A stretch of DNA of 64,000 bases from Candidatus Parcubacteria bacterium (GTDB taxonomy: Bacteria; Patescibacteriota; Minisyncoccia; Sungbacterales; SURF-37). The position numbers and the translations under genes were made by a program. This document shows, piece by piece, positions 4,038 through 63,207 of this stretch. The notes below the pieces were generated by a model that searched no databases, was not told the DNA's origin, and was given only the letters and a program-made list of their open reading frames with translations. The stretch's first letter is position 1. Each line of letters opens with the position of its first letter. The DNA is taken from positions 66,424 through 130,423 of the forward strand of contig QZJO01000011.1 of the NCBI GenBank assembly GCA_003599755.1. The letters run 5' to 3'.

Positions 4038-4117
4038 GGCCGCATGATAGCAGCGTGTGCCCCAAAGAAGAACCGTCCCGATGTACATCGGGACGGTTCT
4101 TCTTTGCGTTGCTGCAT

Positions 4118-19999: not shown

Positions 20000-20160
20000 A
20001 GTTCCCCGGTTACCAATGACGCTTGTAGTATCTCCGGCCCGCCGAAGCAGGTCAATTTCGGCTGTGGATAGGATATGCGCGCCCACGGAGCGCGCGCAGT
20101 AAGCGCGTGCGCTCTTGCGCGTCTTATACCACTACCAATGATTCGTCCGTTCACTCTTTT

Positions 20161-37362: not shown

Positions 37363-38307
37363 TTACTGCGTGGATTGCCGCTCTCCGACGCGCGATCCGC
37401 GGCCGGTCTGCTGGCGAATGTGGCGCGTTGCCGCGCTGAACGACATGCCGAGAACTTCCCCGGCTAACTTTTCCTGCAGCGCGTGGTCGAATTGGACAAG
37501 CTGCAGCGCGGTCGCGAACCCGAGGCGCTGGCCGCGGGGACGCATGAGAGACAGTAAGGCGGCCACGTTCGGAGACAGCCGCCGGAGCGCAAGGTGCTGG
37601 TTGACCCAGCCGATCGAGGCGTTGCGGTCCTCGGCGATCTTCATGCAGCTGTGCCCCTGCGCGCGCAGCTGAAGAATCGCGCGCATGACGGCAATCGCGT
37701 CGTGATCGCGCGTGCCTCGTCGGGACGGGGTGATGGGAGCAACGGTATCGCCGTGCGATGTCTCAGGTGCTGCCGGTGCCTGGGGAGCGTGGGCGGTGCC
37801 GCTCGAGTGCGCGTTCGGCTCGGGCGGCGGGATTGCGGCCGGGGGCTGGGAACCGTTGCCGTTCGCTGGAAGATCGGCCGTTACGGCGGGCGGCACCGGC
37901 GGACCAGTTGGGGCAGGCGCGCTTCGGCCGTTCTGATGCGCCGGTTTCGGAGTCGGATCCGCGTTCGGCATCGCAAGCCGCCGGCGCGCATTGGCGATGA
38001 TCACGACGCCGGTGGCCATGTGCGGGCCACAGAAACCGGAGATGCGATCCGACGCGATACGCGGATGCTCGGCTCGATCGCCGACGCAGGCGATGCAGGG
38101 CCGCCAGGGCGAGCCGCACCGATTCTTGGCGCAGCCGTTGAGGTTGGTCGCGAAGTCGCTTGCCATTCGCAGGCAGCCGTCACGATCCACGCCGCCCCCG
38201 CCCAGAAGTGGGCATGCATAGAGTTTCTCCGGAAGGCGTTCGCGTCGCACGGTCGGGACGGGTCCGCGCGCCAGAAGCCGGTGATCACCTGCCCGGAACT
38301 GGGTCAT
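37363..38307 (-). CDS. DNA-binding protein: N-terminal Cys-rich region plus Pro-rich linker plus C-terminal ParB/KorB-like HTH
   Basis: GAAAGGAGAA RBS; C-terminus SCMKIAEDRNASIGWVNQHLALRRLSPNVAALL resembles the ParB/Spo0J HTH; N-terminus has 9 Cys (CPLLGG...GCLRM...GCAKNRCGSPWRPCIACVG...FCGPH). Confidence 0.5.
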   Translation of the reverse strand: MTQFRAGDHRLLARGPVPTVRRERLPEKLYACPLLGGGGVDRDGCLRMASDFATNLNGCAKNRCGSPWRPCIACVGDRAEHPRIASDRISGFCGPHMATGVVIIANARRRLAMPNADPTPKPAHQNGRSAPAPTGPPVPPAVTADLPANGNGSQPPAAIPPPEPNAHSSGTAHAPQAPAAPETSHGDTVAPITPSRRGTRDHDAIAVMRAILQLRAQGHSCMKIAEDRNASIGWVNQHLALRRLSPNVAALLSLMRPRGQRLGFATALQLVQFDHALQEKLAGEVLGMSFSAATRHIRQQTGRGSRVGERQSTQ

Positions 38308-44941: not shown

Positions 44942-45841
44942 CTACCTCACGTTCACCCACGCCATGCCCCGATCCGCGCTCTTGTAGATGGCGTTCTTGT
45001 TCGTTAGCGCATAAACAACGTCCGGTTCGGTCTTGCTGAACGCAAGATACAGGACGGTTCCGCCGGCAAAGGTTTCGTTCACTTTCTCCCACGAAACGCC
45101 GCCGTCGGCGCTTTTGCCGAGCCCGCCGAGGCGTTCGGAGAACGCAAGCGCGTAGTCATTGTCCTGCGGATGGGACGCAAAGACGCTTACCGCCCCGCCC
45201 GAAAGTTCTTCGGAAAGGTTTGCCCATGCATCGCCCTTGTCCTTGCTGATTTGTACGCCGTTTTGAGTTGCGGCATAGAGGGTATGTTTATCCGTATGAT
45301 CGACCGAGAGCGAGTACGGGGCAATTGAGCCACGCGCATATTCCCATGATCTGCCGCCATCCTGGCTTCTTTGGAGTTTACCGCCGAAAAATCCATAGAT
45401 GACATCTGGATTTGCCGCGCTCACCGCCATGGCATGGAAGTCCACCGGACCGCCGAGTCCTGCGGATATGCGTTCCCACGAGAGGCCGCCGTCCGTCGTT
45501 TTTTGAAGGCCGATATTGCCGCCGCGTGCGGGATGCCCGCTACTGAAGAACACGTTTGCTTCCGTCGGATGCGAATTGAAACCCATCAAGTCGTCGCGCG
45601 TCTCGCCGATGCGATAGAGGTCTTTGTCGTCCTTGAGGAGATATAACCCCTCGTGCGTGGCGATGTAGACCTTGCTCGCGTCCGTGACATCAACCGCAAT
45701 CCCGTGCGAATGGCTGAACGATGATACGGGAATAAGCGGTTCGCCGCCGCGGGCCGCGCCGGGGGCGTCTTCCTTAACCAGGAGAAAGCCGAGCGCGAGC
45801 AGGAGGATGGCGCCCCCCGCGATTAGATAGTTTTTCTGCAT
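44942..45841 (-). CDS. secreted BNR/Asp-box repeat beta-propeller protein (Ycf48/sialidase-like fold)
   Basis: Signal peptide; repeated S/TxDGGxSW boxes (TTDGGLSW, SQDGGRSW, SKDKGDAW, SADGGVSW). Confidence 0.65.
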   Translation of the reverse strand: MQKNYLIAGGAILLLALGFLLVKEDAPGAARGGEPLIPVSSFSHSHGIAVDVTDASKVYIATHEGLYLLKDDKDLYRIGETRDDLMGFNSHPTEANVFFSSGHPARGGNIGLQKTTDGGLSWERISAGLGGPVDFHAMAVSAANPDVIYGFFGGKLQRSQDGGRSWEYARGSIAPYSLSVDHTDKHTLYAATQNGVQISKDKGDAWANLSEELSGGAVSVFASHPQDNDYALAFSERLGGLGKSADGGVSWEKVNETFAGGTVLYLAFSKTEPDVVYALTNKNAIYKSADRGMAWVNVR

Positions 45842-45858: not shown

Positions 45859-46218
45859 TCAATTTCGGCGCCACTGCCGCATCATATCGATCTCGTTCGC
45901 CTGCGCGGCGATGATGTCGTTGGCGAGTTTGATGAATTCGGGGCGCTTCGTGCCGGCAAGAAGCGTGCGCGCCATTTCAACCGCGCCTTCGTGATGTACG
46001 ATCATCCCGTCGAGGAAGGCTCGTTCCAGGGCCGCTCCCGTTCTGCCGTCGAGGTCCGCCATCATCCCGCTCATCGCGCCATGCATGCCGCTCGGGATAC
46101 TCGCGGACGGATACGGCACGTTCTTCGCGGCTGCCGTCGTGCCCGCAACGTATCCGATGACGAGGCCGAGAATGAGGGTCAGCAAGCCGATGACCAAACC
46201 GTTGTTGATAGGTTCCAT
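45859..46218 (-). CDS. DUF305 family protein (single repeat), membrane-anchored
   Basis: LDGMIVHHEGAVEMA motif; TM N-terminus. Confidence 0.65.
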   Translation of the reverse strand: MEPINNGLVIGLLTLILGLVIGYVAGTTAAAKNVPYPSASIPSGMHGAMSGMMADLDGRTGAALERAFLDGMIVHHEGAVEMARTLLAGTKRPEFIKLANDIIAAQANEIDMMRQWRRN

Positions 46219-46258: not shown

Positions 46259-46648
46259 CTACGGCGCGCGCGGACTGGTTGCGGTCTCCAGAAGGAGCGT
46301 GGAAAAAAGCGAATCACGTAAAAATCCTTCGGGAACGAATATGCGCGGCCGAGGCGGATCAGGCGGGTCGCAGGTGCGGCGCAAAAACAGGCGTGCAGCG
46401 GCAAATGCGAGAAGCGCTAAAACGGGTATCCCCGGCGGTATCGCGGTCATCAGTGCTTGCCACAAGGAGATGTGTTCAAACGCGGGCATCGTACATATCG
46501 CTTTTTCCCCAAACATAAACGGACAATTGATCATCGGCGCCCCGTCGTGAGCCATGCCCATCACCCCGACAGGCAATACGAGCATCGGGCCGATGCATAC
46601 CGCGAGCGCGACAATCGAGACAGACGATTTTATGAGCGTATGTTCCAT
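46259..46648 (-). CDS. hypothetical membrane protein, possibly degenerate
   Basis: Hydrophobic N-terminus but odd Pro/Asp-rich C-terminus; lies at the GC transition before the lower-GC block. Confidence 0.3.
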   Translation of the reverse strand: MEHTLIKSSVSIVALAVCIGPMLVLPVGVMGMAHDGAPMINCPFMFGEKAICTMPAFEHISLWQALMTAIPPGIPVLALLAFAAARLFLRRTCDPPDPPRPRIFVPEGFLRDSLFSTLLLETATSPRAP

Positions 46649-46755
46649 AGTAGGGTCGGCAGCATCAGGGCACGAACCATGCAACTCAGCAGTAAAGCGA
46701 AGTTCGCTTTATGGTAAGCAGCGAGCCGCGGCATTTACCCCGCACCAATTCCTTT

Positions 46756-46962
46756 CTCCGAAAGCGAGACGACGTTCGAACCTTAACGATCAAATTAGTC
46801 CGCGACGTTTATGAAAGCATACGCGAGTTCGGTCTCGCGCTCAATCTGCCGAAGTTCGCTTTTGTTCCGGGTCGACGTGACGACGCCTCGCGGTGGCGTC
46901 CCTCTCAATTTATGAATTCAGAGCAGGCCGCCAAGTGGGAGAAACCGGCCGCATGAGGCCGG
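46756..46962 (+). repeat. 207-bp direct repeat, copy 1 (about 97% identical to copy 2)
   Basis: ctccgaaagcgagacgacgttcgaacc...gagaaaccggccgcatgaggccgg repeated at 48864..49070; contains several short hairpins. Confidence 0.85.
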
Positions 46963-47067
46963 GTCGCATGGCTCTTGACGAGATAACATATAAGTGCTTT
47001 TGTTATTTGGCTCCTCCCAATCAGCTCTTCTCGATCACTTGATAAATCGCGCATTCAGGAGGGGCTC

Positions 47068-47319
47068 GTGTCAGCTCATAACGAGAGACAGCTAGACTCA
47101 GAGTCGCATCATGACCTTCACATGAAGTTGGTCGCGGCTATCCAGGAGGCGCAAGAGGAAGCTTCCCGCGCGTGGGAAAAATGGGAGGCTGAACTCCGTG
47201 ATTGGCACCTCGAGAATCCTGGGAGGCGCACGCGGCGTGGTGTGCATGGGAGGCGGAGATGGAAACGGAAAGGAGGAGGGGATGATGCAAATCAGCATCT
47301 ACCAACATCACGGAGGTGA
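47068..47319 (+). CDS. hypothetical small helical protein (GTG start)
   Basis: AGGAGGGG RBS before GTG 47068; overlaps the next gene by 38 nt in a different frame. Confidence 0.35.
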   Translation: MSAHNERQLDSESHHDLHMKLVAAIQEAQEEASRAWEKWEAELRDWHLENPGRRTRRGVHGRRRWKRKGGGDDANQHLPTSRR

Positions 47320-47641
47320 CTTCAAGGTCGCCTGGACCGACGGCGATGGAGGAGAGCGCCACTTCATGTACGATCTGGGCGGGGCCATCAGCTTTGCCCT
47401 CGGACTGAAGATCGGCGCGCTCGCGCGAGGCGAGGAGGCCGAACTCATCGTCAACGTCCGACATCCGGCGATGAATCGGGGCTTCCGCGACGGATTCCTG
47501 ATGGGTCGTGGCGACCCAACCGGACAGGAGTGGCTGTTTGCCGGCGGTTATACTGCCGATAGACGCTCTCCGCCGGACGATGGACGCTACGCAGCTCATC
47601 TGCCGTTCATGCGCGAGCGACTGGCGGAGTTCCTCCGCTAG
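47282..47641 (+). CDS. hypothetical protein (119 aa)
   Basis: AAAGGAGGAGGGG RBS before ATGATG 47282; no family match. Confidence 0.45.
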   Translation: MMQISIYQHHGGDFKVAWTDGDGGERHFMYDLGGAISFALGLKIGALARGEEAELIVNVRHPAMNRGFRDGFLMGRGDPTGQEWLFAGGYTADRRSPPDDGRYAAHLPFMRERLAEFLR

Positions 47642-47777
47642 CACTCGGGTCACTTCACCGGACCTTACTCGGTGGACGCGACGATTGGCTGCGCAATGCC
47701 GATCATCACAGGCACCGATGCATAGAGAGCATCGGGCCTTTTGTTTTCGCTCAATCGGTGATGTACGGCATAACTAA

Positions 47778-48608
47778 TTAGATACCGAGCAGCTGAACGA
47801 TGACGCTTGGCTTCCAGACCTGCCCTAAATTTGATAGTTCGCTTAACTCCTCATCTTGGACCCGACCAGAGTATATACCCATGAATTTCGTTCGCGGTGG
47901 TACACCAAGCTGGAAACCCTCTGACGAATGAATGAGACCCGATCTATATGCGATCACAGGAGAACCCGACATACCTTTTTTTGTTGACGCGTCAATTAGA
48001 AAGATTGGCCTCTTCGCATAGTCGATATCGATATCCGAGGCGACGTGACCCGTCTTCCAAATTGGAAATTTACCAAAAGCCGATTGATTGTACGGGAATC
48101 CGATTATTGAAACGGGATCCGATGGCAAGATTATAAGATCTGTATTCGCAAGGGTGATATCCAGTGGGTGCACATCGATATCGTTCGTGACCTCGATCGG
48201 TAGAGCGATGACATCTGCTTTTCCATCTGCCGTGTCTATCTCCTTCCACGTGAGTTTGCCATTTCCATCTTGTAGGGAAACATCCTTCGGAATCCATTTA
48301 CCGAGCAAGTCTTTTCGGTGATGCCAGATTCGAATCGTGTTAGGTATTGCAGCTAGCCCCGAAAGTGGATTATCTGTTTTAGGATCTCGTCCAGATACGA
48401 CATGCCAGTTCGTTATCAAGAAATGCTCTCCATCTCTGGCAACAATAAATCCGGTACCGGAGCCCAGTTGTTGGGCATTAAAAAAGATTTCCAGATGGAG
48501 CGAAATTGCCGTAAGGGGATGCACGATTGGCATAGTTGTTTCTCGAAGATATTGCGGCCAGGACATGGCCTGAGTCATCGTTATGTTCGAACCTCTAATT
48601 CTTCGCAT
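47778..48608 (-). CDS. trypsin-like (S1/chymotrypsin-fold) serine peptidase
   Basis: GSGTGFIV...HFLITNWHVV (His), D, and TKKGMSGSPV (Ser) catalytic triad context; about 48% GC vs about 65% flanks; start 48608/48578/48533 uncertain. Confidence 0.7.
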   Translation of the reverse strand: MRRIRGSNITMTQAMSWPQYLRETTMPIVHPLTAISLHLEIFFNAQQLGSGTGFIVARDGEHFLITNWHVVSGRDPKTDNPLSGLAAIPNTIRIWHHRKDLLGKWIPKDVSLQDGNGKLTWKEIDTADGKADVIALPIEVTNDIDVHPLDITLANTDLIILPSDPVSIIGFPYNQSAFGKFPIWKTGHVASDIDIDYAKRPIFLIDASTKKGMSGSPVIAYRSGLIHSSEGFQLGVPPRTKFMGIYSGRVQDEELSELSNLGQVWKPSVIVQLLGI

Positions 48609-48863
48609 CAAACCGATTCAATTTTGAACTTTTGGCCTTCCATTTTTGACAATGCTCGGGCGGCAGGATCCCGGCGCTCTGCGCCTAGAACCGTCGCGGC
48701 ACGCGCACTGCATGCGCTAACGCCGCTCTTTGAAACCTTGCGGTTTCAATACTTCCACCACGGGGAAACTCCCGTTTCCCCGACCTCCCTTCTCTGGTTC
48801 GAATCCTACGCGCCTCGTGCATCAAAATCAAAACCCCTCGCAAGGAGAGGTTTTGATTTCGAA

Positions 48864-49070
48864 CTCCGAAAGCGAGACGACGTTCGAACCTTAACGATCA
48901 AATTAGTCCGCGACGTTTATGAAAGCATACGCGAGTTCGGTCTCGCGCTCAATCTGCCGACGTTCGCTTTTGTTCCGGGTCGCCGTGACGACGCCTCGCG
49001 GTGGCGTCCTTCTCACATTATGAATTCGGAGCAGGCCGCCAAGTGGGAGAAACCGGCCGCATGAGGCCGG
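48864..49070 (+). repeat. 207-bp direct repeat, copy 2
   Basis: See copy 1; the two copies bracket the 1.9-kb protease cassette. Confidence 0.85.
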
Positions 49071-49120
49071 TCCGCGTTCGAGCGTTTCATGGTAGAAGCT
49101 AGATAACGAATCAGCAGTAG

Positions 49121-51004
49121 CTATTCGCCCATCTCTCCGAGGAAGCGGGATCTCTCCTTTCCAACGATCCTTCCACCATGCCGATGCGTTTCTCTGCCTG
49201 TTCGCTGAGAGGCCCATGACATCAGTAACGACTGTTTCGAGCGGGTAACCGAGACGAAGAAAAGGCGCCGGCGCTCCTCGATGTTCGGCATCTCCCCCGG
49301 CATGAGATCGTCCTCCAGCGCGGGAATAAAAACGATTGGCGCCTCGAGGCCTTTGGCGCTGTGCATGGTAAGAATCCGTACCTTATCCGGGAGTTCCGCA
49401 TCCTTTCCCTCGAGCTTGCCAGCTTCTCGCTCCTGCTCGAAATTCTGCAGGAGCTCGCTTAGTTTCATCACATTCTCCTTCCCCGCCTGCCTTGCAAAGT
49501 ATTCCTGTGCGATCCCTATTCCCTTATCATCAGCGCATTGTGGTGCATCTCGGATAATGGTCGGGATGATTGTTTCGAAATTCCTTTCAGCAGCACGTTC
49601 GGACATCTTCCGATGAAATTCTCCTACGAGACGTCGGTGCCGAATATCGGGATAGCGACTGGGGTCCTTTGCGACATTTTGAGTTGCCGCCCAAAGTGAC
49701 TGCCCGTTTGCCTGAGCCAGATCACGAAGATGTTTAATGGTCTCTGCCCCAATGCCATCGTGCGCGCCAAGACATTGGCGTGCAGCCAGATTATCTGACT
49801 GATCAGCCAGGAGTCCGAGTACCGCGAGGAGTTGAGCGAAACATTCAGAGTCGAATGGACCAGCTATTCTCAATTGAACATCGGTCGGAATATTGGCTAC
49901 CCGAAGCGCTGAGATGTAATCATCCGCAACTCCACCATCGCCAAAGAGAATCATCATCTCACGGTACTGAGCGCCACGTTCGTGAAGTTCCTCGACCTTA
50001 GCGACCAGCCATTGGATTTCTGCTTTTTTGCTTCGCAACCAGAAGGTTGCGACTGTGCCCCCATTCTGCGCGGCAACAAGGTTGGCCTTTCCTGGAATTC
50101 TTATCCTGTTGTTGCGAATCAAGGCATTTGCTTTATCGATTATGGCGGACGGGCAGCGATGGCATTTTGTTAGAAGGAGCGTCGTGGTGCCAGCGACGCG
50201 GTCGTGGAAATCAACCAGTCCATTGGGTCGAGCGAAGCGCTGGGTCTCATAGATGCTTTGGTCCTCATCGCCCACTACACAAAGACCACGAGGGTTACCT
50301 ATCAGAAGACGTACCAGCTCTTGATCGCTATGATTCAGGTCCTGGTATTCATCGACGAGTAGATAATGAATCCTCGCCTGCTCTCTTTCGCGAATGTTGG
50401 GATGGGCTTCAAAGATGCGCAACACAGCGTGAACAACTCGAAACCAATCGACACCACCATAGAATCCCTGAATCGCCTCGTACGCTTCGGTGAACCTATG
50501 ATAGGTCTCCGTTGCTTGGGGGCTCCTGCGAATCCAGTTCGGGATACCAGCGCCGCTCAATTCGGCCCTGTACGCGTTTAGATATGTTTTTATATTGCCC
50601 TGTCCTCTGAAAGGCAGTCGTAGACCGATCGCATTTAGATCGACCATCACATCTTGGATAAGGATTCTTGTTTCATGCTCACTTAAGGGTCGAACCGTTT
50701 GTTTCATTCCAACTAGGTCAGCGTGCTGTTTTAGAATCCCCATCGCTTTCGAGTGAAGCGTCCGGACATCAGGCATTCGATCCGGAGCGATGCCCTCGCG
50801 TTCGAGACGCTGCCGCATCTCTTTCGCCGCCGCACGCGTAAACGTCACCGCGAGCATCGTTTTTGGATCAATTTTGTCCTTAGTGAGCAGATCAACTATT
50901 CGAGCGACCAGACACATGGTCTTTCCAGTTCCAGGACCAGCAACAACGCGGAGAGGGCTATCCCTGTGATCCACGACTTGCTGCTGCTCGTCGCTCAGAT
51001 TCAT
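49121..51004 (-). CDS. UvrD/PcrA-like superfamily-1 DNA helicase (627 aa, lower GC)
   Basis: Motif I AGPGTGKT, motif II LLVDEYQD, motif V TMHSAKGLE, motif VI VSVTRSK. Confidence 0.8.
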   Translation of the reverse strand: MNLSDEQQQVVDHRDSPLRVVAGPGTGKTMCLVARIVDLLTKDKIDPKTMLAVTFTRAAAKEMRQRLEREGIAPDRMPDVRTLHSKAMGILKQHADLVGMKQTVRPLSEHETRILIQDVMVDLNAIGLRLPFRGQGNIKTYLNAYRAELSGAGIPNWIRRSPQATETYHRFTEAYEAIQGFYGGVDWFRVVHAVLRIFEAHPNIREREQARIHYLLVDEYQDLNHSDQELVRLLIGNPRGLCVVGDEDQSIYETQRFARPNGLVDFHDRVAGTTTLLLTKCHRCPSAIIDKANALIRNNRIRIPGKANLVAAQNGGTVATFWLRSKKAEIQWLVAKVEELHERGAQYREMMILFGDGGVADDYISALRVANIPTDVQLRIAGPFDSECFAQLLAVLGLLADQSDNLAARQCLGAHDGIGAETIKHLRDLAQANGQSLWAATQNVAKDPSRYPDIRHRRLVGEFHRKMSERAAERNFETIIPTIIRDAPQCADDKGIGIAQEYFARQAGKENVMKLSELLQNFEQEREAGKLEGKDAELPDKVRILTMHSAKGLEAPIVFIPALEDDLMPGEMPNIEERRRLFFVSVTRSKQSLLMSWASQRTGRETHRHGGRIVGKERSRFLGEMGE

Positions 51005-51209
51005 AATCCCGGATATGTTCGAACTTTTCTTTGAGAGGTCATGCGATTACTTTAAAACGTTGTTGTTTCTGGGTGTTTAGGACATAACCTCTCCGGAGTA
51101 TCGCCGCCTCAGAAACCGGCCTACTTCGGCCGGTTTCTCCGTCTAGTCGCCATCCTGCGGGGTCGTAAAGTGAGCACAGGTTCGATCAGAACTGCCGGCT
51201 CCTTGCGAA

Positions 51210-51401
51210 ATGAACATGAACGAAACCGCAGGGTATCGAGCGTTCCAGGCACGCGTCCGTGCCTGGGGCGATCTCTTCGCATCAATGGGTCTCCCCATGA
51301 AGGCGGACGATGTCGAGACTGTCGCGACGTATGCAGCGGCAATCGAAGAAGTGATTCGGAAAAGTCGTCGGAATTCGCGTAAGCGTATTAGTCGAAAGTA
51401 G
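51210..51401 (+). CDS. possible small helical protein (63 aa) next to tRNA
   Basis: ORF only; no RBS; speculative. Confidence 0.15.
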   Translation: MNMNETAGYRAFQARVRAWGDLFASMGLPMKADDVETVATYAAAIEEVIRKSRRNSRKRISRK

Positions 51402-51514
51402 CTAGATAACTGCGGGGACGTCGGCGAGAGGATCGAACCGTGGGGATGAGTCCAGGTTCGAATCCCACGCCTGGGTGAGGTTGAAACGCGCGCATTTATG
51501 CGCAAAATGACCGA

Positions 51515-51586
51515 CTCCGGCGGCAGGATTCGAACCTGCGACCATCTCGTTAACAGCGAGCCGCTCTACCACTGAGCTACGCCGGA
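51515..51586 (-). tRNA. tRNA-Asn (anticodon GUU)
   Basis: Cloverleaf readable on minus strand: acceptor TCCGGCG/CGCCGGA, D-arm GCTC-AGTGGTA-GAGC, anticodon stem-loop GCTCG-CTGTTAA-CGAGA, T-arm GCAGG-TTCGAAT-CCTGC; CCA not encoded. Confidence 0.7.
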
Positions 51587-51589
51587 ATA
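51569..51589. repeat. 21-bp direct repeat ccactgagctacgccggaata (copy A, overlaps tRNA 5-prime end)
   Basis: Identical 21-mer recurs at about 51871..51891, bracketing the GIY-YIG ORF. Confidence 0.6.
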
Positions 51590-51825
51590 AGGTTATGCTT
51601 TCGAATGTACTTTCTGCCTGCTGCACTCTTCAGATATCGCTCACGTTCTCGCGCTTCCTCAATCGTATTGCATTCTTCTGTATATATCACTTTCCACGGA
51701 GCATACCGGCTAGAGAAGGTTCCTTGCCCATTATTATGCTCATGAAGTCTGCGGTCTAGATCCGTAGTGCTGCCGGTATATGTCTTTTTCGCCGTTTTAC
51801 TTTTGAGGATGTACACTATCGCCAT
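51577..51825 (-). CDS. GIY-YIG nuclease family small protein
   Basis: IVYILKSKTAKKTYTGSTTDLDRRLHEHNNG...WKVIYTEECNTIEEARERERYLK; 3-prime end overlaps the tRNA-Asn 5-prime end. Confidence 0.65.
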   Translation of the reverse strand: MAIVYILKSKTAKKTYTGSTTDLDRRLHEHNNGQGTFSSRYAPWKVIYTEECNTIEEARERERYLKSAAGRKYIRKHNLIPA

Positions 51826-51870
51826 ACCGCTCTACCCGCCTCGCGTCGACTCGCCGCGAGTCGAGGCGGG

Positions 51871-51891
51871 CCACTGAGCTACGCCGGAATA
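51871..51891. repeat. 21-bp direct repeat copy B (tRNA-Asn 5-prime fragment) preceded by a GC hairpin
   Basis: ccactgagctacgccggaata preceded by gtcgactcgccgcgagtcgag palindrome; approximate coordinates. Confidence 0.55.
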
Positions 51892-57057: not shown

Positions 57058-57318
57058 TCAGCTGGCGCGCCGCTTGAACAAATAGTCCTTCAGCCGACGC
57101 TTCAGCAGTCTGCGACCGTGCGTTGTTTTGAGATGTTTCTCTCTGCGGCGCGCATCGGAGCCTTCGAGCATGGCCTCGTAGTAGATGCAGCGCCACTGGC
57201 TTCTCTTGGTGGAGAAATTCTTCCCGCTGTTGTGTTCGGCGAGTCGCTTTCGGAGATCAACGGTATATCCGATGTAATGCTCTCCGCTTGGGTTCTCGAG
57301 AACGTAGACGTAGAACAC
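57058..57318 (-). CDS. GIY-YIG nuclease family small protein (GTG start proposed)
   Basis: FYVYVLENPSGEHYIGYTVDLRKRLAEHNSG...WRCIYYEA...RRREKHLK; placed 11 nt downstream of the signal-peptidase gene stop. Confidence 0.55.
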   Translation of the reverse strand: MFYVYVLENPSGEHYIGYTVDLRKRLAEHNSGKNFSTKRSQWRCIYYEAMLEGSDARRREKHLKTTHGRRLLKRRLKDYLFKRRAS

Positions 57319-58235: not shown

Positions 58236-58525
58236 CCGCGACAGCGATGAAAGCCATCGGCGGAAGCTCAGCTTGCCTGATCCGCCTTGGGCGGATCCGA
58301 CTTGTGGGATTTGAGTAGTAGGTTCCATACCACCCACTTGTACCCCATTTTGATCTGTTTGTCAGCCCCACGAGCTGCCCGAGTCGCCGCCTAGATTTCG
58401 CCGAAGCAGAACCTAGGCGGTACACTCGGATTTCCATCTGAATCTCACAAGGACTCAGGCGAAGCTTGCCGCCTAAGTTTCGCAACGCGAAAGTGAGGCG
58501 GGGTTTGGACAGCTAAGCGTGGTGC

Positions 58526-60211
58526 TTAGTTTTCGGGATATGCAGAAGATTCTGCCGGCTCGGTATCAACTTCGGTGATGTCATTCGTGCGAGCCGCCTC
58601 GGCTTCGCCATCCCACCAGTTGTCCTCGGCATTCACGTCTGCGCCGCCGGATACGGACGGACCGTACCAATTGACATTGTTCCCAAGACCTGCGGGAGCA
58701 AAGTTGTTGGTATTTACGGTCAGGACGCCGTTGTTACTCGTCCCATTCGCAGCGGCCGGAGCTACGCCGACGGCCTCAAGAACGTTGCTTTCGAAATCAT
58801 TGTGGTGAATCGAGGAAGCATCCGGGCCGTCGTTCGCCACGCCCACGTCATTGTTCAGGATGTCGTTGAACGCCACTTCATAATTTGAAGCGGTGTTGAA
58901 GAACATGGCCTGGCGCCAACCATCAAAGACATTGTGAAGAATGTCGATGTTGGTCGCGACAGGCGTTGATCCGGAACCGATCTCAGTAATCACAGCCTTT
59001 GCGTCAGCGCCCTTGGCACCCCCCGGAGCCGTGAACAGGTTGTGGCTGATTACGGTGTTATCAAGCGACGAGTTGCTGCCTTGTCCGGTTTCGTTGTGGA
59101 TGTAGATCGCGGCATTCGCGCTTGCTTGGATGAAGCTGTAGTTGGTGAATTCAAGGCCGGTGATAGTCACGTTATCAGCGTCGATGAACATGCCGCCGGG
59201 GATGTTTGCATCACCAGCCGCTCCAAGCCCCGCAATCGTCACGCTCTCATCGACGTTGATGGGGAAGGTATCGGTGCCGTTGTACGTGGAATCAACACAG
59301 ATTGTCGCTCCGGGAGCGGCTGCATCAATGGCGGCCTGTAGAGATTCGCTACCCGATACCGTATCAGTGCAATCAGCCGGATCATCATAGGAAGCGACTG
59401 CAGCCCCTACGAGGGGGCGTACTTCTTCGCTGACATCCGACACTTCGACCCAGAGGTCGCAGCCGAAGATTTTGTGTTCGTTCGCGATCGGCTGGGTGAA
59501 GGCATCGGCATCGATCGTGGAGCTCGCGCTCACACGCTCGACGAATTCCTGCCAGTCCTGGGCGCAATAGTTGCCAAAGCAAGGTACTGCAAGATCGATA
59601 ACCCAGTTGTCGACAGTATCACCGGGGAGCTCATCCTCGGTGTCCACATCCGATTTTGCCAAGCGGCCGAACGTGTCGAGATATTGAACAGTCGAGGTTG
59701 GACCGTTGGTGTCAACCCAGAATGGAATGTGGAACGAATTGGTATTGCCGTCGTTCTCATCCGGTCCGTGTTTCGAGATGTATTCGCAGAGCGACGGAAG
59801 GACGCCCCATGTTTCGCCCGTGGTAAGCTGCCGTGGAGCCTCGCCACAATCAACGCTGTAAGAGCCATCTTGGTTCGCCACGAGATGACCGGTTGTTGCG
59901 AGCGGCTCGTCCATCAGAACGGTGCCATTTTCGGCCGTGATCGCGCATTTTGGCTTCTGGCGGATGAAGTATGCGACGTCATCCACGCGACCCTCTTCCA
60001 AAAACGAGTTGGAAAGTTGAACGGTCAGCGGCTGATCCAGATGCTCCTGCGGAAAGACCGTGCCGAAGTCGATCCACTCGGTACCTACGGAAAGCGCATT
60101 CTCGATTTTTGCCGTCACGTTGACCACGTGCGCCTCGAACGCCGCGAAGAGCGGCAAGAGCGCGACCGCGGTTCCCGCGACAACGATCCCCAATGCTAGT
60201 TTCTTTTTCAT
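58526..60211 (-). CDS. secreted protein: SipW-cognate-like signal plus conserved N-domain plus right-handed beta-helix-like C-terminal region
   Basis: MKKKLALGIVVAGTAVALLPLFAAFEAHVVNVTAKIENAL; C-terminal NxxIxxN parallel beta-helix-type repeats. Confidence 0.65.
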   Translation of the reverse strand: MKKKLALGIVVAGTAVALLPLFAAFEAHVVNVTAKIENALSVGTEWIDFGTVFPQEHLDQPLTVQLSNSFLEEGRVDDVAYFIRQKPKCAITAENGTVLMDEPLATTGHLVANQDGSYSVDCGEAPRQLTTGETWGVLPSLCEYISKHGPDENDGNTNSFHIPFWVDTNGPTSTVQYLDTFGRLAKSDVDTEDELPGDTVDNWVIDLAVPCFGNYCAQDWQEFVERVSASSTIDADAFTQPIANEHKIFGCDLWVEVSDVSEEVRPLVGAAVASYDDPADCTDTVSGSESLQAAIDAAAPGATICVDSTYNGTDTFPINVDESVTIAGLGAAGDANIPGGMFIDADNVTITGLEFTNYSFIQASANAAIYIHNETGQGSNSSLDNTVISHNLFTAPGGAKGADAKAVITEIGSGSTPVATNIDILHNVFDGWRQAMFFNTASNYEVAFNDILNNDVGVANDGPDASSIHHNDFESNVLEAVGVAPAAANGTSNNGVLTVNTNNFAPAGLGNNVNWYGPSVSGGADVNAEDNWWDGEAEAARTNDITEVDTEPAESSAYPEN

Positions 60212-60374
60212 TTGTTTGGTTTGAATTAGTTCTGCTCGACTCGACCTTTTGTACGTTCCCCTTTGCAGCAACCGCTGTATCAGAGCATTTCGGATACAGG
60301 AGTTGCTGCAGGGTTTTTGGCCTTCCGGCCAAAGCATAGTCCCCGCTTCCGCAGGAACTATGTTTGGGCGCAAG

Positions 60375-61655
60375 TTACTCCACCGGCTCCACGCACTCCT
60401 TGCTGTTGTAGCTCAGCTTGTAGAGGAGTCCCGCGGGGTTGGTTTCGGGCGTGCCGCCGGGCATCCCCTCGTTCGTGACCTCAATTTTTAGCGTATTGAG
60501 GCCGGGTGCGAGGTTCGTGACCGCGTACGCATCCTGCGTGGCGGCTTGGAAGTTGTTCGGGTTGACCAATTCTTGGCCGACGAGGATGTCGTTTACGAAC
60601 GCGCGGTACGTATTGTCGGTCGCGATGTTGAGAAACGCGCTCGTCACCGTGCCGCTGACCGTGAACGTCCGCTCGAACGTGAACGTCTCGGTGAGGGTCG
60701 GGTTATCAACCGGGTCGCTTTCCCAGATCCAGGACGCGAACGGAATACTTGCCGTCCATGCCGGATGGATTGAGGTCACGAGCTCGGCCGGCGCGTCGCC
60801 GTTTTCGGCGACCGTGGTATTCGTGTCGCTGCCGATCTGCGTGAGCGTTTCTTCGCCGAGCGCGCAGCTGACTTCGGATACTTCGACCCAAAGATCGCAG
60901 CCGAAGATTTTGTGCTCGTTTTCTTTTGGCTGGGTGTACTCGTCGGCGTTGATCGTCGAGCTGCCGCTGACGGCGGCCACGAAGTCGGCCCAGTCCTGGG
61001 CGCAGAATCCGCCGAAGCACGGCACGGCCAGGTCAATGATCCAGTTGTCTACGGTGTCGCCGTCGATCTCGTCTTCCAGATCAGTGTCGGATTTGGCGAG
61101 GCGGCCGTGCGTGTCGTTCCACGCGATGCCAAACGGCGTCTCGGCGCCGTCACCGACAATCGTCCACGGCTGGTGGAACGACGTGAGGGTCTCGTCGTTT
61201 TCATCCGGCCCTTCTTTGGAGATGTATTCGCATAGCGACGGCAACATGCCCCAGCTTTCGCCCTCAACGAGCGCGCGGGGCGCGGGGCCGCAGTCCACGG
61301 TTACCTCGCCCTCCTGATCGAGCACCAAGTGGCCGGTCGCGGCGAGCGGCTCGTCCACCAGAACGGTGCCGTTCTCGCGCGTGATGGCGCATTTGGGTTT
61401 TTGGCGGAGGAAATATTCAACGTCGTCCACGCGATCTTCGTCGAGGAATGATTGCGACAAGGCAACGCGCAGCGGCTGGTCCAGGTGCTCCTGCGGAAAG
61501 ACCGTGCCGAAGTCGATCCAGTCGGTGCTTACCTGGAGGGCATTTTCGATTTTTGCCGTCACGTTGACCACGTGCGCCTCGAACGCCGCAAACAGCGGCA
61601 AAAGCGCGATGGCGAGACCGACGGCGGCAATTCCGATGCCGATTCGTTTAGTCAT
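60375..61655 (-). CDS. secreted protein: SipW-cognate-like signal plus conserved N-domain plus C-terminal beta-sandwich
   Basis: MTKRIGIGIAAVGLAIALLPLFAAFEAHVVNVTAKIENAL; N-domain about 70% identical to the 58526 paralog. Confidence 0.65.
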   Translation of the reverse strand: MTKRIGIGIAAVGLAIALLPLFAAFEAHVVNVTAKIENALQVSTDWIDFGTVFPQEHLDQPLRVALSQSFLDEDRVDDVEYFLRQKPKCAITRENGTVLVDEPLAATGHLVLDQEGEVTVDCGPAPRALVEGESWGMLPSLCEYISKEGPDENDETLTSFHQPWTIVGDGAETPFGIAWNDTHGRLAKSDTDLEDEIDGDTVDNWIIDLAVPCFGGFCAQDWADFVAAVSGSSTINADEYTQPKENEHKIFGCDLWVEVSEVSCALGEETLTQIGSDTNTTVAENGDAPAELVTSIHPAWTASIPFASWIWESDPVDNPTLTETFTFERTFTVSGTVTSAFLNIATDNTYRAFVNDILVGQELVNPNNFQAATQDAYAVTNLAPGLNTLKIEVTNEGMPGGTPETNPAGLLYKLSYNSKECVEPVE

Positions 61656-61755
61656 GCGTCTGATTGCCGAACCGTTCCCCGAGTCCGGAAAGTCACGCGA
61701 GTGAAGCGATAACCCCAAACCCCGCGGATTGCGGGGTTTGGGGGAGTTTCAGCGA

Positions 61756-63207
61756 TTACTCTTCGCAAACCGTAAGTTCGACCAAGATCGATTCAAGGTC
61801 ATCGAAATCGCTTGCGAGGAAGTATTGGCTCGGAGCATCGGCAATCTCATTCATGAGGAATGCCTCGGTGGTCGATGTGACGCCGATCCCGATGGCGAAT
61901 ACGTCGATACCGGCAGCGCGCGCCGCATCAGCTGCAGCCGCTGCGTCTATCGCGCCTTGCGCTTCGTCCGGCTGATTGGGCGCACCGTCCGAGATAACGA
62001 CCATGACGTCCTGCACCGATGGCCGCTCATGGGCATGCGCGTTATCGAGTTCGGCAATGGCAAGCGTGATGCCGGCTTCCATATCCGTGGTCCCGCCGCT
62101 TACCAAGCCATTGATAGCGGCCTGAATGGTCGCTTTGACGTCCGTGAGGTGCGAATCCAATGTTGCGCCACTGGAGAAACTCGTCTGGCCGATATGGTTC
62201 TCATTACCCGATGCCGAAGGCATGAGCGCATCAACGAACGCGAGCAATCCCGTCTTTACGGTGTTCATGTCCGTCCCGCCGATGCTGCCGGAGCGATCAA
62301 CCACAAGCATGAGGTCGATCTCTTCTTCGCAGCCAAGACCCGGCAAGCTGATGTTGAATACTTCGAACCAAAGATCGCAGCCGAAGATCTTGTGCTGATT
62401 CTCGATCGGCTGGGTCCAGTCGTCGGCATTCTCCTGCTCGTTCGCGTTATGCGTGCCGACGAATGTCGCCCAGTCCTGGGCGCAGAATCCGCCGAAGCAC
62501 GGCACGGCCAAGTCGATCAGCCAGTTATCCTCGAAGTCCTGGACGCTTTTGGCCAGGCGGCCCTGGGCTTCCAGCCAGGAGATGCTTTCACCGTTTACGG
62601 TAAACGGCGCGTGGAATGCGTCTACATCGTCATCGTTCTCCTGCTCGGTGCCGTCTTCCGTGTCTTCGTGCTTCGAAAGATACGGGCAGAGCATGGGCAG
62701 TACGCCCCAGGTCTCTTCCGGAACGGTTTGAAGCTCGCGGGGCGCGGGGCCGCAATCTACGTAGTAGCCGTCGAATTGAGTTACGCCTTCGAATGTATCG
62801 CCGGGATCCAACGGCAGCGGATCAGCTACGTCATTCGGATCATACGCGCCGGGGAATACGTGGCCGGTCCGAGTATACAGATGCGTGCCATCTTCGCCCG
62901 TGGCGGCGTCGAATTCCGTGCCGTCATTCCAGGTGATGGCGCATTTGGGCTTTTGGCGGATTACGTACTCCACGTCGTCCACCCGGTCTTCATCTTGGAA
63001 CGATTGCGACAGGGCGATGGGGATGTTCTTTACGAGATACTCCTGCGGGAAGACGGTGCCGAAGTCCAAGGGATTTACGGGAACCGTCAAAGCGTTTTCG
63101 ATCTTGGCCGTGACGTTGACCACGTGTGCCTCGAACGCCGCGAACAGCGGCAGAAGGGCAACGGTGGCGCCGGCAACGGCAAGACCGAATAGAACCTTTC
63201 TTTTCAT
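61756..63207 (-). CDS. secreted protein: SipW-cognate-like signal plus conserved N-domain plus C-terminal von Willebrand factor A (MIDAS) domain
   Basis: MKRKVLFGLAVAGATVALLPLFAAFEAHVVNVTAKIENAL; LMLVVDRSGSIGG...TDMEAGI...VVISDGAPN VWA motifs. Confidence 0.7.
   Translation of the reverse strand: MKRKVLFGLAVAGATVALLPLFAAFEAHVVNVTAKIENALTVPVNPLDFGTVFPQEYLVKNIPIALSQSFQDEDRVDDVEYVIRQKPKCAITWNDGTEFDAATGEDGTHLYTRTGHVFPGAYDPNDVADPLPLDPGDTFEGVTQFDGYYVDCGPAPRELQTVPEETWGVLPMLCPYLSKHEDTEDGTEQENDDDVDAFHAPFTVNGESISWLEAQGRLAKSVQDFEDNWLIDLAVPCFGGFCAQDWATFVGTHNANEQENADDWTQPIENQHKIFGCDLWFEVFNISLPGLGCEEEIDLMLVVDRSGSIGGTDMNTVKTGLLAFVDALMPSASGNENHIGQTSFSSGATLDSHLTDVKATIQAAINGLVSGGTTDMEAGITLAIAELDNAHAHERPSVQDVMVVISDGAPNQPDEAQGAIDAAAAADAARAAGIDVFAIGIGVTSTTEAFLMNEIADAPSQYFLASDFDDLESILVELTVCEE

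What the first reader, a model, noticed from the sequence alone, without database searches (positions are those of the whole stretch)
46756..49070. 207-bp near-identical direct repeats bracketing the protease cassette
Two 207-bp copies (46756..46962 and 48864..49070) differ at only a handful of positions and flank exactly the 1.9-kb lower-GC segment holding the S1 peptidase and two small ORFs. This is far longer than IS target-site duplications. It suggests either an att-type duplication from site-specific insertion or a cassette that can be lost by homologous recombination between the repeats, giving an on/off accessory module. Each copy has several short hairpins and ends in a gaaaccggcc...ggccgg stem-loop; a similar stem-loop recurs at about 51110-51140, so these may be a repeated structured element family.
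Basis: seen in the sequence. Interest (0 to 1): 0.65.

Follow-up and report, generated by a model that had tools for sequence, protein, structure and literature searches.

The report
Duplicated non-coding flank in tRNA-Asn islet
Two 97%-identical 212-bp non-coding copies really do bracket a 1.9-kb accessory segment in a small gene islet next to a tRNA-Asn gene of a Parcubacteria genome, and they look like an ordinary recombination scar, not a new RNA or a new kind of mobile element.

Summary
46756-46967 and 48864-49075 are direct repeats ("R1", "R2"): 212 nt with 8 differences, or 207 nt with 6. Both boundaries are sharp, and these are the only high-identity repeats in the 64-kb window. A second public contig carries the identical arrangement.

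R is non-coding. It matches no Rfam family, shows no folding signal, and has no homologue in any collection searched. Its right end is a terminator-type hairpin 45 nt after the stop of a UvrD/GajB-like helicase. A diverged inverted 60-nt copy lies upstream of that helicase.

The repeats sit in a 4.8-kb lower-GC mosaic between tRNA-Asn and a conserved 141aa-DUF305-BNR operon. No recombinase was found among the window ORFs scanned. A 14/15 same-strand copy of the tRNA's last 15 nt lies at 48669-48655, inside the "cassette". That copy, not R, is the att-like core.

Best reading: R is a flank or end module that was duplicated when a second accessory module (trypsin-like peptidase plus ORF119) was recombined into the islet. 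The exact route is unresolved. Recombination between the copies could delete 2.1 kb, but no single-copy variant was found.

This is ordinary genome plasticity and of low interest. An unexplained, strongly structured 181-nt element (48650-48830) was noticed inside the cassette.

The parts
46756..46967 (.). Repeat copy R1 (212 nt). It lies in the divergent intergenic region between the 141-aa/DUF305/BNR operon (minus strand) and ORF83/ORF119 (plus strand).
48864..49075 (.). Repeat copy R2 (212 nt). It starts 45 nt downstream of the helicase stop codon and is followed on the minus strand by terminator T2.
46945..46962 (-). T1 hairpin of R1 (CCGGCC-loop-GGCCGG, followed by TTTCTCC on the minus strand). 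No upstream minus-strand gene lies close by, so this is a vestigial position.
49053..49070 (-). T1 hairpin of R2. It is a terminator-type stem-loop with a TTTCTCC tail, 51 nt after the helicase stop codon (49121).
   Evidence: The tail has 4 T in 8, below the scan tool's threshold.
51115..51174 (+). c3: a diverged inverted partial copy of the T1 end of R (hairpin + TTTCTCC + 35 nt), upstream of the helicase start. The stems and tail are 19/19 conserved, all 3 hairpin mismatches are in the loop, and the extension is 22/35.
48829..48855 (-). T2: terminator-like hairpin with a TTTTGATTTT tail, immediately after the left end of R2 on the minus strand.
48650..48830 (-). Strongly structured 181-nt element. 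It has a long closing stem and four hairpins, two of them perfect 8-9 bp helices capped by GCAA and GGGA loops on the minus strand. Its 3' end contains the tRNA-end copy.
   Evidence: z -5.9 on both strands, 0/200 shuffles; no Rfam hit
48655..48669 (-). DR-2: ATCCTGCCGCCCGAG, a 14/15 copy of the 3' terminus of tRNA-Asn in the same orientation. Candidate att-type repeat.
51513..51587 (-). tRNA-Asn (GTT). Its last 15 nt (51529-51515) form DR-1.
49121..51004 (-). UvrD/GajB-like SF1 helicase (627 aa), GC3 0.535, with no GajA partner nearby. The closest relatives retrieved from metagenome contigs are at most 31% identical.
47778..48611 (-). Trypsin_2 (S1) peptidase. The probable start is the ATG at 48578 (266 aa). 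It has His, Asp and Ser motifs (NWHVV, DVIAL, GMSGSP). It hits PADLOC PDC-S45 and PHROG 7688. GC3 is 0.46, and the nearest homologues are 55-57% identical, in other phyla.
47282..47641 (+). ORF119: strong Shine-Dalgarno sequence, host-like GC3 of 0.72, and only one homologue (73%) in 5.8 billion proteins. It is convergent with the peptidase. The plus-strand terminator is at 47715-47735.
47068..47319 (+). ORF83: a possible small gene (GTG start with AGGAGGGG upstream). It appears in none of the JGI gene calls seen for this locus, and no family matches it.
46693..46711 (.). Perfect 19-bp palindrome TAAAGCGAAGTTCGCTTTA between R1 and the operon start. Its 13-mer CGAAGTTCGCTTT recurs inside R1 (46850-46862); R2 has 1 mismatch there.
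46259..46684 (-). 141-aa membrane-like ORF, first gene of the conserved operon with DUF305 (45859-46218) and the BNR protein (44942-45841). This is the host side of the islet.

Best explanation
R is a non-coding junction or end module of a small mosaic islet that lies between tRNA-Asn and a conserved metal-related operon in a Parcubacteria genome. In its R2 position it carries the terminator hairpin of the helicase gene. In its R1 position it is the upstream region of the operon.

The module became duplicated when a second accessory module (peptidase plus ORF119/ORF83) was recombined into an islet that already held the helicase module. That gave the order tRNA-Asn, helicase, R2, [T2, structured element with tRNA-end copy], peptidase, ORF119/83, R1, operon.

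The interleaved pattern (tRNA-end repeat, R, tRNA-end repeat, R) is what stacking of two related units produces. Three routes would give it:
(a) site-specific accretion at the tRNA-Asn end by an integrase acting in trans, followed by decay of the distal end;
(b) Campbell-type single crossover of a 2.1-kb circle within R;
(c) homology-anchored insertion of DNA from a sibling strain.

Shown here: the repeats and their boundaries, the non-coding and non-RNA-family status, the islet anatomy, the tRNA-end repeat, foreign composition, absence of a recombinase among the ORFs scanned, and absence from the closest relative.

Inferred: the order of events, the recombination route, terminator function, and the consequence that RecA-type recombination between the copies would delete a 2108-bp unit and leave one R.
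For: The repeats are real, sharp-edged and 97% identical, and the same arrangement occurs on a second contig.

R is non-coding. The 81-aa plus-strand ORF has no homologue among 1.84 billion representatives and no Pfam, PHROG or NCBIfam hit. R2 has no start codon for it.

There is no RNA family match and no fold signal.

The islet is accessory. The closest relative locus, L001, shares only the three operon genes and has no R-like DNA. The GC3 values of the peptidase (0.46) and helicase (0.535) compare with 0.69-0.78 for host genes. Peptidase homologues are solitary genes in unrelated contexts and phyla.

The tRNA-Asn terminal 15-mer recurs at 14/15 on the same strand, 2860 bp away, with 2/2000 shuffles matching as well. 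T-arm-like 16-mers (15/16 identical) lie inside both ends of that interval.

The T1 hairpin lies 45-51 nt after the helicase stop. Its stem and tail are perfectly conserved in the diverged copy c3, while the loop and extension have diverged. A 13-mer in R1 matches a palindrome beside the operon start. Together these place R as the helicase-to-operon junction.

Tandem accretion and integrase-less CIME remnants at tRNA genes are documented (PMC5704250).
Against: No empty-site or single-copy variant was found, so the polarity and order of events are untested. None of the ORFs scanned with Pfam in the window is an integrase or recombinase. No third tRNA-end repeat lies beyond R1, so route (a) needs an extra deletion. 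The tRNA-proximal ends of the two proposed units are unrelated, which is unexpected for sibling elements using one integrase. ORF119 has host-like codon usage, so the segment between the repeats is not a single foreign cassette. The 15-mer repeat rests on one 14/15 match.
Confidence: 0.6

Rival explanations
1. Functional duplicated cis-regulatory or RNA element. R is a terminator-promoter-leader unit, or a small RNA gene, kept in two copies because each serves its downstream unit. R1 would drive the metal operon. R2 would give a roughly 100-165-nt transcript ending at T2, or act on the peptidase.
For: Weak sigma-70-like matches lie on the minus strand inside R (TTGGCG-16-TAAATT and TTGAGC-17-TATGCT, read from the sequence). 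T2 follows R2 directly. The GTTCGAAC palindrome in R also lies 8-19 nt upstream of both the peptidase and helicase start codons as TATGTTCGAAC; 4 of the 5 window copies are in islet non-coding DNA. The first 97 nt are identical between the copies. A 13-mer is shared with the palindrome beside the operon.
Against: Neither promoter candidate passes the scan threshold. Fold z-scores are not significant. No Rfam family matches. The substitutions in one hairpin break pairing. R is absent upstream of the same operon in the nearest relative. With two near-identical copies, covariation cannot be assessed. The GTTCGAAC count as a whole is only marginally enriched (5 against 1.3 expected; 2/100 shuffles reach it).
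Confidence: 0.12
2. R1 and R2 are the attL and attR of a 1.9-kb integrase-less element inserted by a site-specific recombinase that recognises R itself.
For: Direct repeats with sharp edges flank accessory DNA. The islet lies beside a tRNA gene, a classic integration hotspot.
Against: No recombinase gene was found among the ORFs scanned in the cassette or the window. R contains no tRNA or other structural-gene end that would explain a 212-bp identity block. The only tRNA-end repeat lies elsewhere (48669-48655), inside the supposed element. The segment is compositionally heterogeneous.
Confidence: 0.1
3. Integron-like cassette array or MITE-type interspersed repeat. R (and c3) would be recombination sites or mobile miniature elements that punctuate gene cassettes.
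For: Three related copies (R1, R2 and partial c3) separate the helicase, the peptidase module and the operon.
Against: The ends have no RYYYAAC / GTTRRRY core sites. At 212 nt R is longer than attC sites (recalled from memory as roughly 57-141 bp), and it folds as a multi-branched, non-significant structure rather than one imperfect hairpin. No IntI was found. R has no terminal inverted repeats and no consistent target duplication (TTCGA flanks R2 only). Only two full copies occur in 64 kb. There were no matches in phage, plasmid or viral collections, and none with the single R 22-mer scanned against metagenome contigs.
Confidence: 0.04
4. Assembly artefact. The real molecules would be a chromosome with one R plus a separate 2.1-kb circle or a strain variant, mis-threaded through the 97-nt identical block.
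For: The source is a metagenome assembly, and the first 97 nt of the copies are identical. The junctions R|T2 and ORF83-side|R would also exist in a free circle.
Against: Two contigs of different length carry the identical arrangement and SNP phasing. The copies differ at 6-8 positions spaced closer than typical k-mer or read lengths, so each copy is linked to its own flanks. The identical block (97 nt) is shorter than usual reads.
Confidence: 0.04

Closest known systems
Tandem accretion of integrative elements and CIMEs (cis-mobilizable, integrase-less remnants) at tRNA genes, e.g. ICESt1-related elements of Streptococcus thermophilus (reviewed in PMC5704250)
   Same: Accessory modules are stacked directly downstream of a tRNA gene. 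The tRNA 3' end is repeated in direct orientation (14/15). No integrase gene is left. Repeats in direct orientation would allow loss of one unit.
   Different: The long repeat (212 bp) is not the att core and does not contain the tRNA end. No third att copy lies beyond the second unit. The tRNA-proximal ends of the two units are unrelated. The units are tiny (2.1-2.9 kb) and carry no transfer or recombination genes.
Campbell-type (single-crossover) integration of a circular DNA through a shared homologous segment
   Same: It produces exactly two direct copies of the shared segment with sharp edges around the inserted DNA. It is reversible by homologous recombination. A repeat length of about 200 bp suits RecA-type recombination (established knowledge, not tested here).
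   Different: No circular form, replication gene or donor was observed. The inserted DNA is itself a mosaic of host-like and foreign composition.
Chromosomal integron cassette arrays and CALINs (attC repeats such as Vibrio VCRs)
   Same: Highly similar repeats separate promoter-poor accessory genes in one orientation-consistent array.
   Different: There are no R'/R'' core sites, no single imperfect hairpin and no IntI. R is 212 nt long. The segment between the repeats holds three ORFs in convergent orientation with their own terminators.
Rho-independent (bidirectional) terminators of this genome
   Same: The stem-loops of R, c3 and T2 have the A-tract / GC stem / T-tract form seen in an unambiguous 20-bp terminator hairpin at about 4066-4109. 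T1 lies 45-51 nt after the helicase stop.
   Different: This accounts for only about 25 of the 212 nt. The T tail is short (TTTCT).

Membership tests
att sites of a tRNA-targeting integrative element / CIME | Direct repeats that include the 3' part of the target tRNA gene at both ends of the element | tested here: not met
   R contains no copy of the tRNA-Asn end: a 20-mer with up to 3 mismatches and a 15-mer with up to 2 mismatches found none. A 14/15 copy exists, but at 48669-48655, outside R. It delimits a different 2.86-kb interval.
att sites of a tRNA-targeting integrative element / CIME | Integrase or recombinase gene in or next to the element (absent by definition in a CIME, but then needed in trans) | tested here: not met
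   Pfam scans covered all islet ORFs and 30 further window ORFs. None is a tyrosine or serine recombinase or a transposase.
att sites of a tRNA-targeting integrative element / CIME | An empty site (attB) in related genomes, or a circular junction | not testable with these tools
   The nearest relative is 74% identical at protein level, with a different gene order. The source reads are not available.
Integron attC site / CALIN | Inverse core and core sites (RYYYAAC ...
   By sequence inspection, the ends are CTCCGAAAG... and ...GGCCGG, and the only near match, GTTAAGG, fails the last position. The RNA and DNA folds are multi-branched, with z-scores from -1.0 to +0.5. The length is 212 nt.
Integron attC site / CALIN | IntI integrase and Pc promoter at the head of the array (not required for a CALIN) | tested here: not met
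   No integrase was found among the window ORFs scanned.
MITE / REP-type interspersed repeat | Terminal inverted repeats, target-site duplication and many dispersed copies | tested here: not met
   The ends of R are not inverted repeats. TTCGA flanks R2 only. Two full copies occur in 64 kb. The genome-wide copy number could not be tested because the MAG is not in the searchable collections.
Known structured RNA family (Rfam 15) | Covariance-model match at or near the gathering score | tested here: not met
   the only hit overlapping R is ohsC (25 bits against a gathering score of 50, E 0.14-1.5), which is driven by the T2 hairpin.
Novel structured RNA | Thermodynamic stability beyond shuffles, and covariation across homologues | tested here: inconclusive
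   For R, stability is not significant. Covariation cannot be assessed with two 97%-identical copies. The substitutions in hairpin 46902-46923 are not compensatory.
Intrinsic terminator (T1 hairpin only) | GC-rich stem-loop followed by a T tract, just downstream of a gene on the same strand | tested here: met
   A 6-7 bp GC stem with a TTTCTCC tail lies 45-51 nt after the helicase stop on the minus strand. The stem and tail are 19/19 conserved in c3 although the flanking extension has diverged by 37%. The tail is below the scan tool's T-tract threshold.
Gabija defence system (for the adjacent helicase) | GajB-type UvrD helicase together with an adjacent GajA (ATPase-TOPRIM) gene | tested here: not met
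   GajB profiles match over the full length (E 1.6e-71), but no GajA-sized ORF lies on either side. The neighbours are a tRNA, non-coding DNA and the peptidase.

The most novel reading that the evidence does not exclude
R, its diverged relative c3 and the adjoining 181-nt hairpin-rich element (which carries the tRNA-end copy) might together form the landing pad of a previously undescribed platform in CPR bacteria. The platform would be recombinase-in-trans or homology-driven. It would stack single defence genes next to tRNA-Asn, with about 200-bp punctuation modules that double as terminators. Alternatively, the 181-nt element could be a new structured RNA class associated with such islets.
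Probability: 0.06. Interest if true: 0.6.

Novelty: new member of a known kind. Interest (0 to 1): 0.22.

Why it matters
If the reading is right, this is a compact example of how very small CPR genomes gain and can lose candidate defence genes. The genes here are a solitary trypsin-like PDC-S45-type peptidase and an orphan GajB-like helicase. They sit at a tRNA-linked hotspot that retains no recombinase among the ORFs scanned, which leaves a 212-bp repeat pair as a ready substrate for deletion. That is useful for annotating this MAG and for population-level studies of gene flux in Parcubacteria. It does not reveal a new mechanism or answer an open question.

Tried and rejected
(1) Coding repeat. 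The plus-strand frame is open across R (81-aa ORF in R1, with an RHH-like look). It has no homologue in 1.84 billion representatives and no family hit. R2 has no start codon for it, and the substitutions are 3 synonymous to 3 non-synonymous. A 38-aa minus-strand ORF keeps a start codon (TTG/GTG), but all 3 of its substitutions are non-synonymous and it has no Shine-Dalgarno sequence. Rejected.

(2) Known RNA family or riboswitch. Nothing was found.

(3) Conserved regulatory region of the operon. It is absent in the closest relative, L001.

(4) Wider repeat family. The hairpin pattern scan of 185,579 species genomes gave only two unrelated terminators. An R 22-mer scan of metagenome contigs gave 0 hits. 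Two R patterns gave 0 hits in viral contigs. blastn against phages and plasmids gave nothing. The source MAG itself is not in the scanned collections, so its genome-wide copy number stays unknown.

(5) Helicase-linked module. Eighty metagenomic helicase relatives (at most 31% identity) carry neither R nor a neighbouring peptidase.

(6) Peptidase-linked module. Two homologue loci carry no R-like DNA.

(7) R's left end as a decayed tRNA 3' end (GGTTCGAA...CGGAG). Only 9/15 match the tRNA-Asn end and there is no T-stem pairing. Not pursued.

(8) A 14/16 match of the tRNA anticodon arm at 46729-46714. It is within chance expectation.

(9) Helicase flanked by 60-nt inverted repeats as a transposon. 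There is no target duplication and no transposase.

(10) Extending beyond the window to look for more copies. Three exact-protein look-ups failed.

(11) Pseudo-tRNA in 48648-48741. ARAGORN reports it only at a threshold that also gives many false hits.
Full report
**Observation**

The two copies exist as described. The repeat finder, MAFFT and blastn give 46756-46967 (R1) and 48864-49075 (R2) as direct repeats spaced 2108 bp apart. Over 207 nt they are 97.1% identical (6 mismatches, E 5e-99). Over 212 nt they differ at 8 positions. The differences fall at repeat positions 98, 120, 147, 153, 154, 165, 208 and 209, so the first 97 nt are identical.

The sequences outside the repeats are unrelated on both sides: local alignment scores equal those of shuffles. 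Both boundaries are therefore sharp. No further full copy exists in the 64-kb window. All other window repeats are 66-88% identical.

A 60-nt partial copy in inverted orientation (c3, 51115-51174) is genuinely homologous:
- The hairpin matches at 22/25 and the adjoining extension at 22/35.
- The alignment scores 40 against 19.7 +/- 2.2 for shuffles.
- Only 3 of 127,930 window 35-mers reach 22/35.

**Source and reproducibility**

The window comes from a MAG labelled Candidatus Parcubacteria bacterium. The BNR protein is RJQ36435.1 (locus tag C4552_04060) and the peptidase is RJQ36439.1, on a contig of 131,458 bp.

A different public contig, JGI Ga0104756_1000081 (105,277 bp), is 100% identical to window 37282-57641. 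It includes both copies with the same SNPs. The 6-8 differences are spaced closer than read length, and the longest identical block is 97 nt. A collapsed or invented repeat is therefore unlikely, although read-level phasing could not be checked.

**What the repeat is not**

It is not coding:
- The plus-strand frame is open through R (an 81-aa ORF in R1). That ORF has no homologue among 1.84 billion representative proteins.
- It has no Pfam, PHROG or NCBIfam hit.
- R2 has no start codon for it.
- The substitutions are 3 synonymous to 3 non-synonymous.

It is not a known RNA. Rfam finds only the tRNA at gathering thresholds and nothing credible at E<10.

It is not detectably structured. Fold z-scores are -1.0 and -0.7 on the minus strand and 0 and +0.5 on the plus strand, and -0.9 with DNA parameters. 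The substitutions inside the 46902-46923 hairpin break pairing rather than compensate.

It is not an attC site: there are no core sites, no single hairpin and no IntI, and it is 212 nt long. It is not a MITE: there are no terminal inverted repeats and no consistent target duplication.

It has no relative in any collection searched:
- The hairpin pattern, scanned against 185,579 species genomes, found only two unrelated terminators (Pyrinomonadaceae and Micromonospora).
- One 22-mer from R, scanned against metagenome contigs, gave 0 hits.
- Viral contigs, phages and plasmids gave nothing.

The two genome hits show that the stem-loop is a generic terminator type.

**Anatomy of the neighbourhood (read on the minus strand)**

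The features occur in this order:
- tRNA-Asn (51587-51513).
- About 500 nt that contain an inverted T-arm-like fragment and c3.
- A UvrD/GajB-like helicase (51004-49121).
- R2.
- Terminator-like hairpin T2 (48855-48829).
- A hairpin-rich 181-nt element (48830-48650).
- A Trypsin_2 peptidase (48611 or 48578 to 47778).
- ORF119 and ORF83, convergent on the plus strand, with a plus-strand terminator at 47715-47735.
- R1.
- 71 nt containing a perfect 19-bp palindrome.
- The 141aa-DUF305-BNR operon.

The interval 46756-51512 is 53% GC, against 60% for the window. GC3 is 0.46 for the peptidase and 0.535 for the helicase, but 0.72 for ORF119. Host genes have GC3 of 0.69-0.78. The segment between the repeats is therefore not uniformly foreign.

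The peptidase hits PADLOC PDC-S45 (E 5.5e-22) and PHROG 7688. Its nearest homologues are 55-57% identical. They occur as solitary genes in unrelated contexts, one of them next to Abi_alpha.

The helicase matches GajB profiles over its full length but has no GajA partner. Its relatives retrieved from metagenome contigs are at most 31% identical, and none has R or a peptidase nearby.

None of the ORFs scanned in the window is a recombinase or transposase.

The closest relative locus, L001 (BNR protein 74% identical), shares only the three operon genes. It has no R-like DNA and has other tRNAs and a serine recombinase upstream. The whole interval, R included, is therefore accessory.

**Clues to origin**

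1. T1 hairpin. The right end of R is a GC hairpin followed by TTTCTCC on the minus strand, 45-51 nt after the helicase stop in R2. In R1 it has no gene to terminate. In c3 the stems and tail are 19/19 conserved. All three hairpin mismatches are in the loop, and the extension has diverged by 37%. This is a signature of selection on the hairpin. An unambiguous terminator elsewhere in the window has the same A-tract / stem / T-tract style.

2. Link to the operon side. A 13-mer inside R1 (46850-46862) is identical to half of the 19-bp palindrome at 46693-46711 next to the operon start. R2 has one mismatch there. R therefore looks at home both after the helicase and before the operon.

3. The tRNA-end repeat. 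The last 15 nt of tRNA-Asn recur at 14/15 on the same strand at 48669-48655. Only 2 of 2000 dinucleotide shuffles of the downstream 10 kb give such a hit. The identity block starts in the T-loop and runs to the tRNA end. From memory, this is a classic pattern for tRNA-targeting integrases. T-arm-like 16-mers (15/16 identical) lie just inside both ends of that 2.86-kb interval.

The order along the islet is therefore tRNA-end repeat, R2, tRNA-end repeat, R1. This interleaved pattern is what stacking of two related units gives.

**Mechanism**

I conclude that R is a junction or end module that was duplicated when a second accessory unit was recombined into the islet. Three routes fit, and the available data cannot separate them:
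- (a) Site-specific accretion at the tRNA-Asn end by an integrase supplied in trans, followed by loss of the distal end of the older unit. This is the CIME / tandem accretion scheme described in PMC5704250.
- (b) A Campbell-type single crossover of a 2.1-kb circle within a resident R.
- (c) Homology-anchored insertion of sibling-strain DNA, in which R2 is the recipient's copy and R1 the donor's.

Each route has a weakness. Route (a) lacks a third tRNA-end copy, and the proximal ends of the two units are unrelated. Route (b) has no observed circle. Route (c) needs an illegitimate join exactly at R's left edge.

Whatever the route, the copies hold 97-nt and 42-nt perfect blocks. Homologous recombination could therefore delete a 2108-bp unit: one R plus T2, the structured element, the peptidase, ORF119 and ORF83. 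This follows from established knowledge of RecA-dependent recombination and was not observed here.

**Rivals**

- A functional regulatory or sRNA role for R cannot be excluded. In its favour are weak promoter-like hexamers, T2 directly downstream of R2, and the GTTCGAAC palindrome that R shares with the 5' regions of both islet genes. It has no positive support from folding, family search or conservation.
- R as the att site itself, an integron-like array, a MITE, and an assembly artefact are each unlikely, for the reasons given in the membership table.

**Verdict**

The feature is real and correctly described. The att core, the cassette limits and the RNA-family idea need correction.

It is a new instance of a known kind of genome plasticity in a poorly studied phylum, so interest is low (0.22). 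The most interesting by-product is the 181-nt element at 48650-48830. It has fold z -5.9 on both strands and two perfect helices capped by GCAA and GGGA loops on the minus strand. It embeds the tRNA-end copy and matches no Rfam family. It may be an att-arm region or a structured RNA, and it could not be followed up for lack of homologues.

Noticed in passing
window 48650-48830: This 181-nt element lies inside the 'cassette', between terminator T2 and the peptidase promoter region. It folds far better than shuffles on both strands (z -5.9, 0/200, and the MFE equals the centroid). It has a long closing stem and four hairpins. On the minus strand two perfect 8-9 bp helices carry GNRA-type loops (GCAA at 48730-48749, GGGA at 48761-48782). 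The 3' side of the closing stem is the 14/15 copy of the tRNA-Asn end. No Rfam family matches and no homologue occurs in any fetched locus. It ranked 3rd of 710 windows in a rough window-wide z-scan.
   Followed up: partly
window 51515-51529 and 48655-48669 (minus strand): The 3'-terminal 15-mer of tRNA-Asn (ATCCTGCCGCCGGAG) recurs at 14/15 in the same orientation, 2860 bp downstream. The two copies enclose ORF63, c3, the helicase, R2 and T2. Only 2 of 2000 shuffles match this well. This is a candidate att-type repeat of a decayed, integrase-less element. A weaker 13/15 hit at 37819-37833 is within chance expectation.
   Followed up: partly
window 51569-51891 (minus strand): An 82-aa GIY-YIG nuclease ORF (51825-51577) sits directly upstream of tRNA-Asn. 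It is preceded by a duplicated 5' part of the tRNA (exact 21-mer at 51871-51891 = 51569-51589). In that copy a 35-nt GC hairpin is inserted in the D-loop region, followed by GTAGAGCGG. The ORF's stop codon lies inside the real tRNA. It looks like a homing-type insertion that restored the tRNA by duplicating its 5' part. A second GIY-YIG gene is called in L086 at 19777-20037, which maps to window coordinates 57058-57318.
   Followed up: partly
window 48582-48592 and 51014-51024; also 46774 and 48882: The 11-mer TATGTTCGAAC (palindromic core GTTCGAAC) lies 8-19 nt upstream of the start codons of both the peptidase and the helicase. The core also occurs once in each R copy. Four of the five GTTCGAAC sites in the window are in islet non-coding DNA (1.3 expected in the whole window). 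It may be a shared operator, or a relic of tRNA T-loop-like sequence.
   Followed up: partly
window 51455-51470 and 48796-48811 (plus strand): Two T-arm-like 16-mers (GGTTCGAATCC[C/T]ACGC, 15/16 identical) lie in inverted orientation relative to tRNA-Asn. One is about 45 nt downstream of the tRNA. The other forms the 5' side of the closing stem of the structured element. 51445-51465 also aligns to tRNA-Asn positions 41-62.
   Followed up: partly
window 46693-46711: A perfect 19-bp palindrome (TAAAGCGAAGTTCGCTTTA) lies 9 nt upstream of the 141-aa ORF start. Its half-site recurs 152 bp away inside R1. It may be an operator pair for the DUF305/BNR operon.
   Followed up: no
window 47282-47641 (ORF119) and P0244: ORF119 has only one homologue (73% identity) in 5.8 billion proteins. 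That homologue is on a 1,014-bp contig from a different JGI sample, and it too has a convergent neighbouring gene at nearly the same spacing. ORF119 and the peptidase may therefore be a linked pair despite very different GC3 (0.72 against 0.46).
   Followed up: partly
window 58500-63200: Three to four tandem paralogous genes (about 1.44-1.55 kb period, 66-84% DNA identity) are all on the minus strand. One carries a VWA domain. They lie next to large LTD/SdrD-like and RTX-repeat surface proteins.
   Followed up: no
window 4066-4109: A perfect 20-bp palindromic hairpin (CAAAGAAGAACCGTCCCGAT...ATCGGGACGGTTCTTCTTTG) lies between two minus-strand ORFs. It gave the strongest fold signal in the window scan and is an ordinary bidirectional terminator. 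It is useful as a reference for terminator style in this genome.
   Followed up: yes
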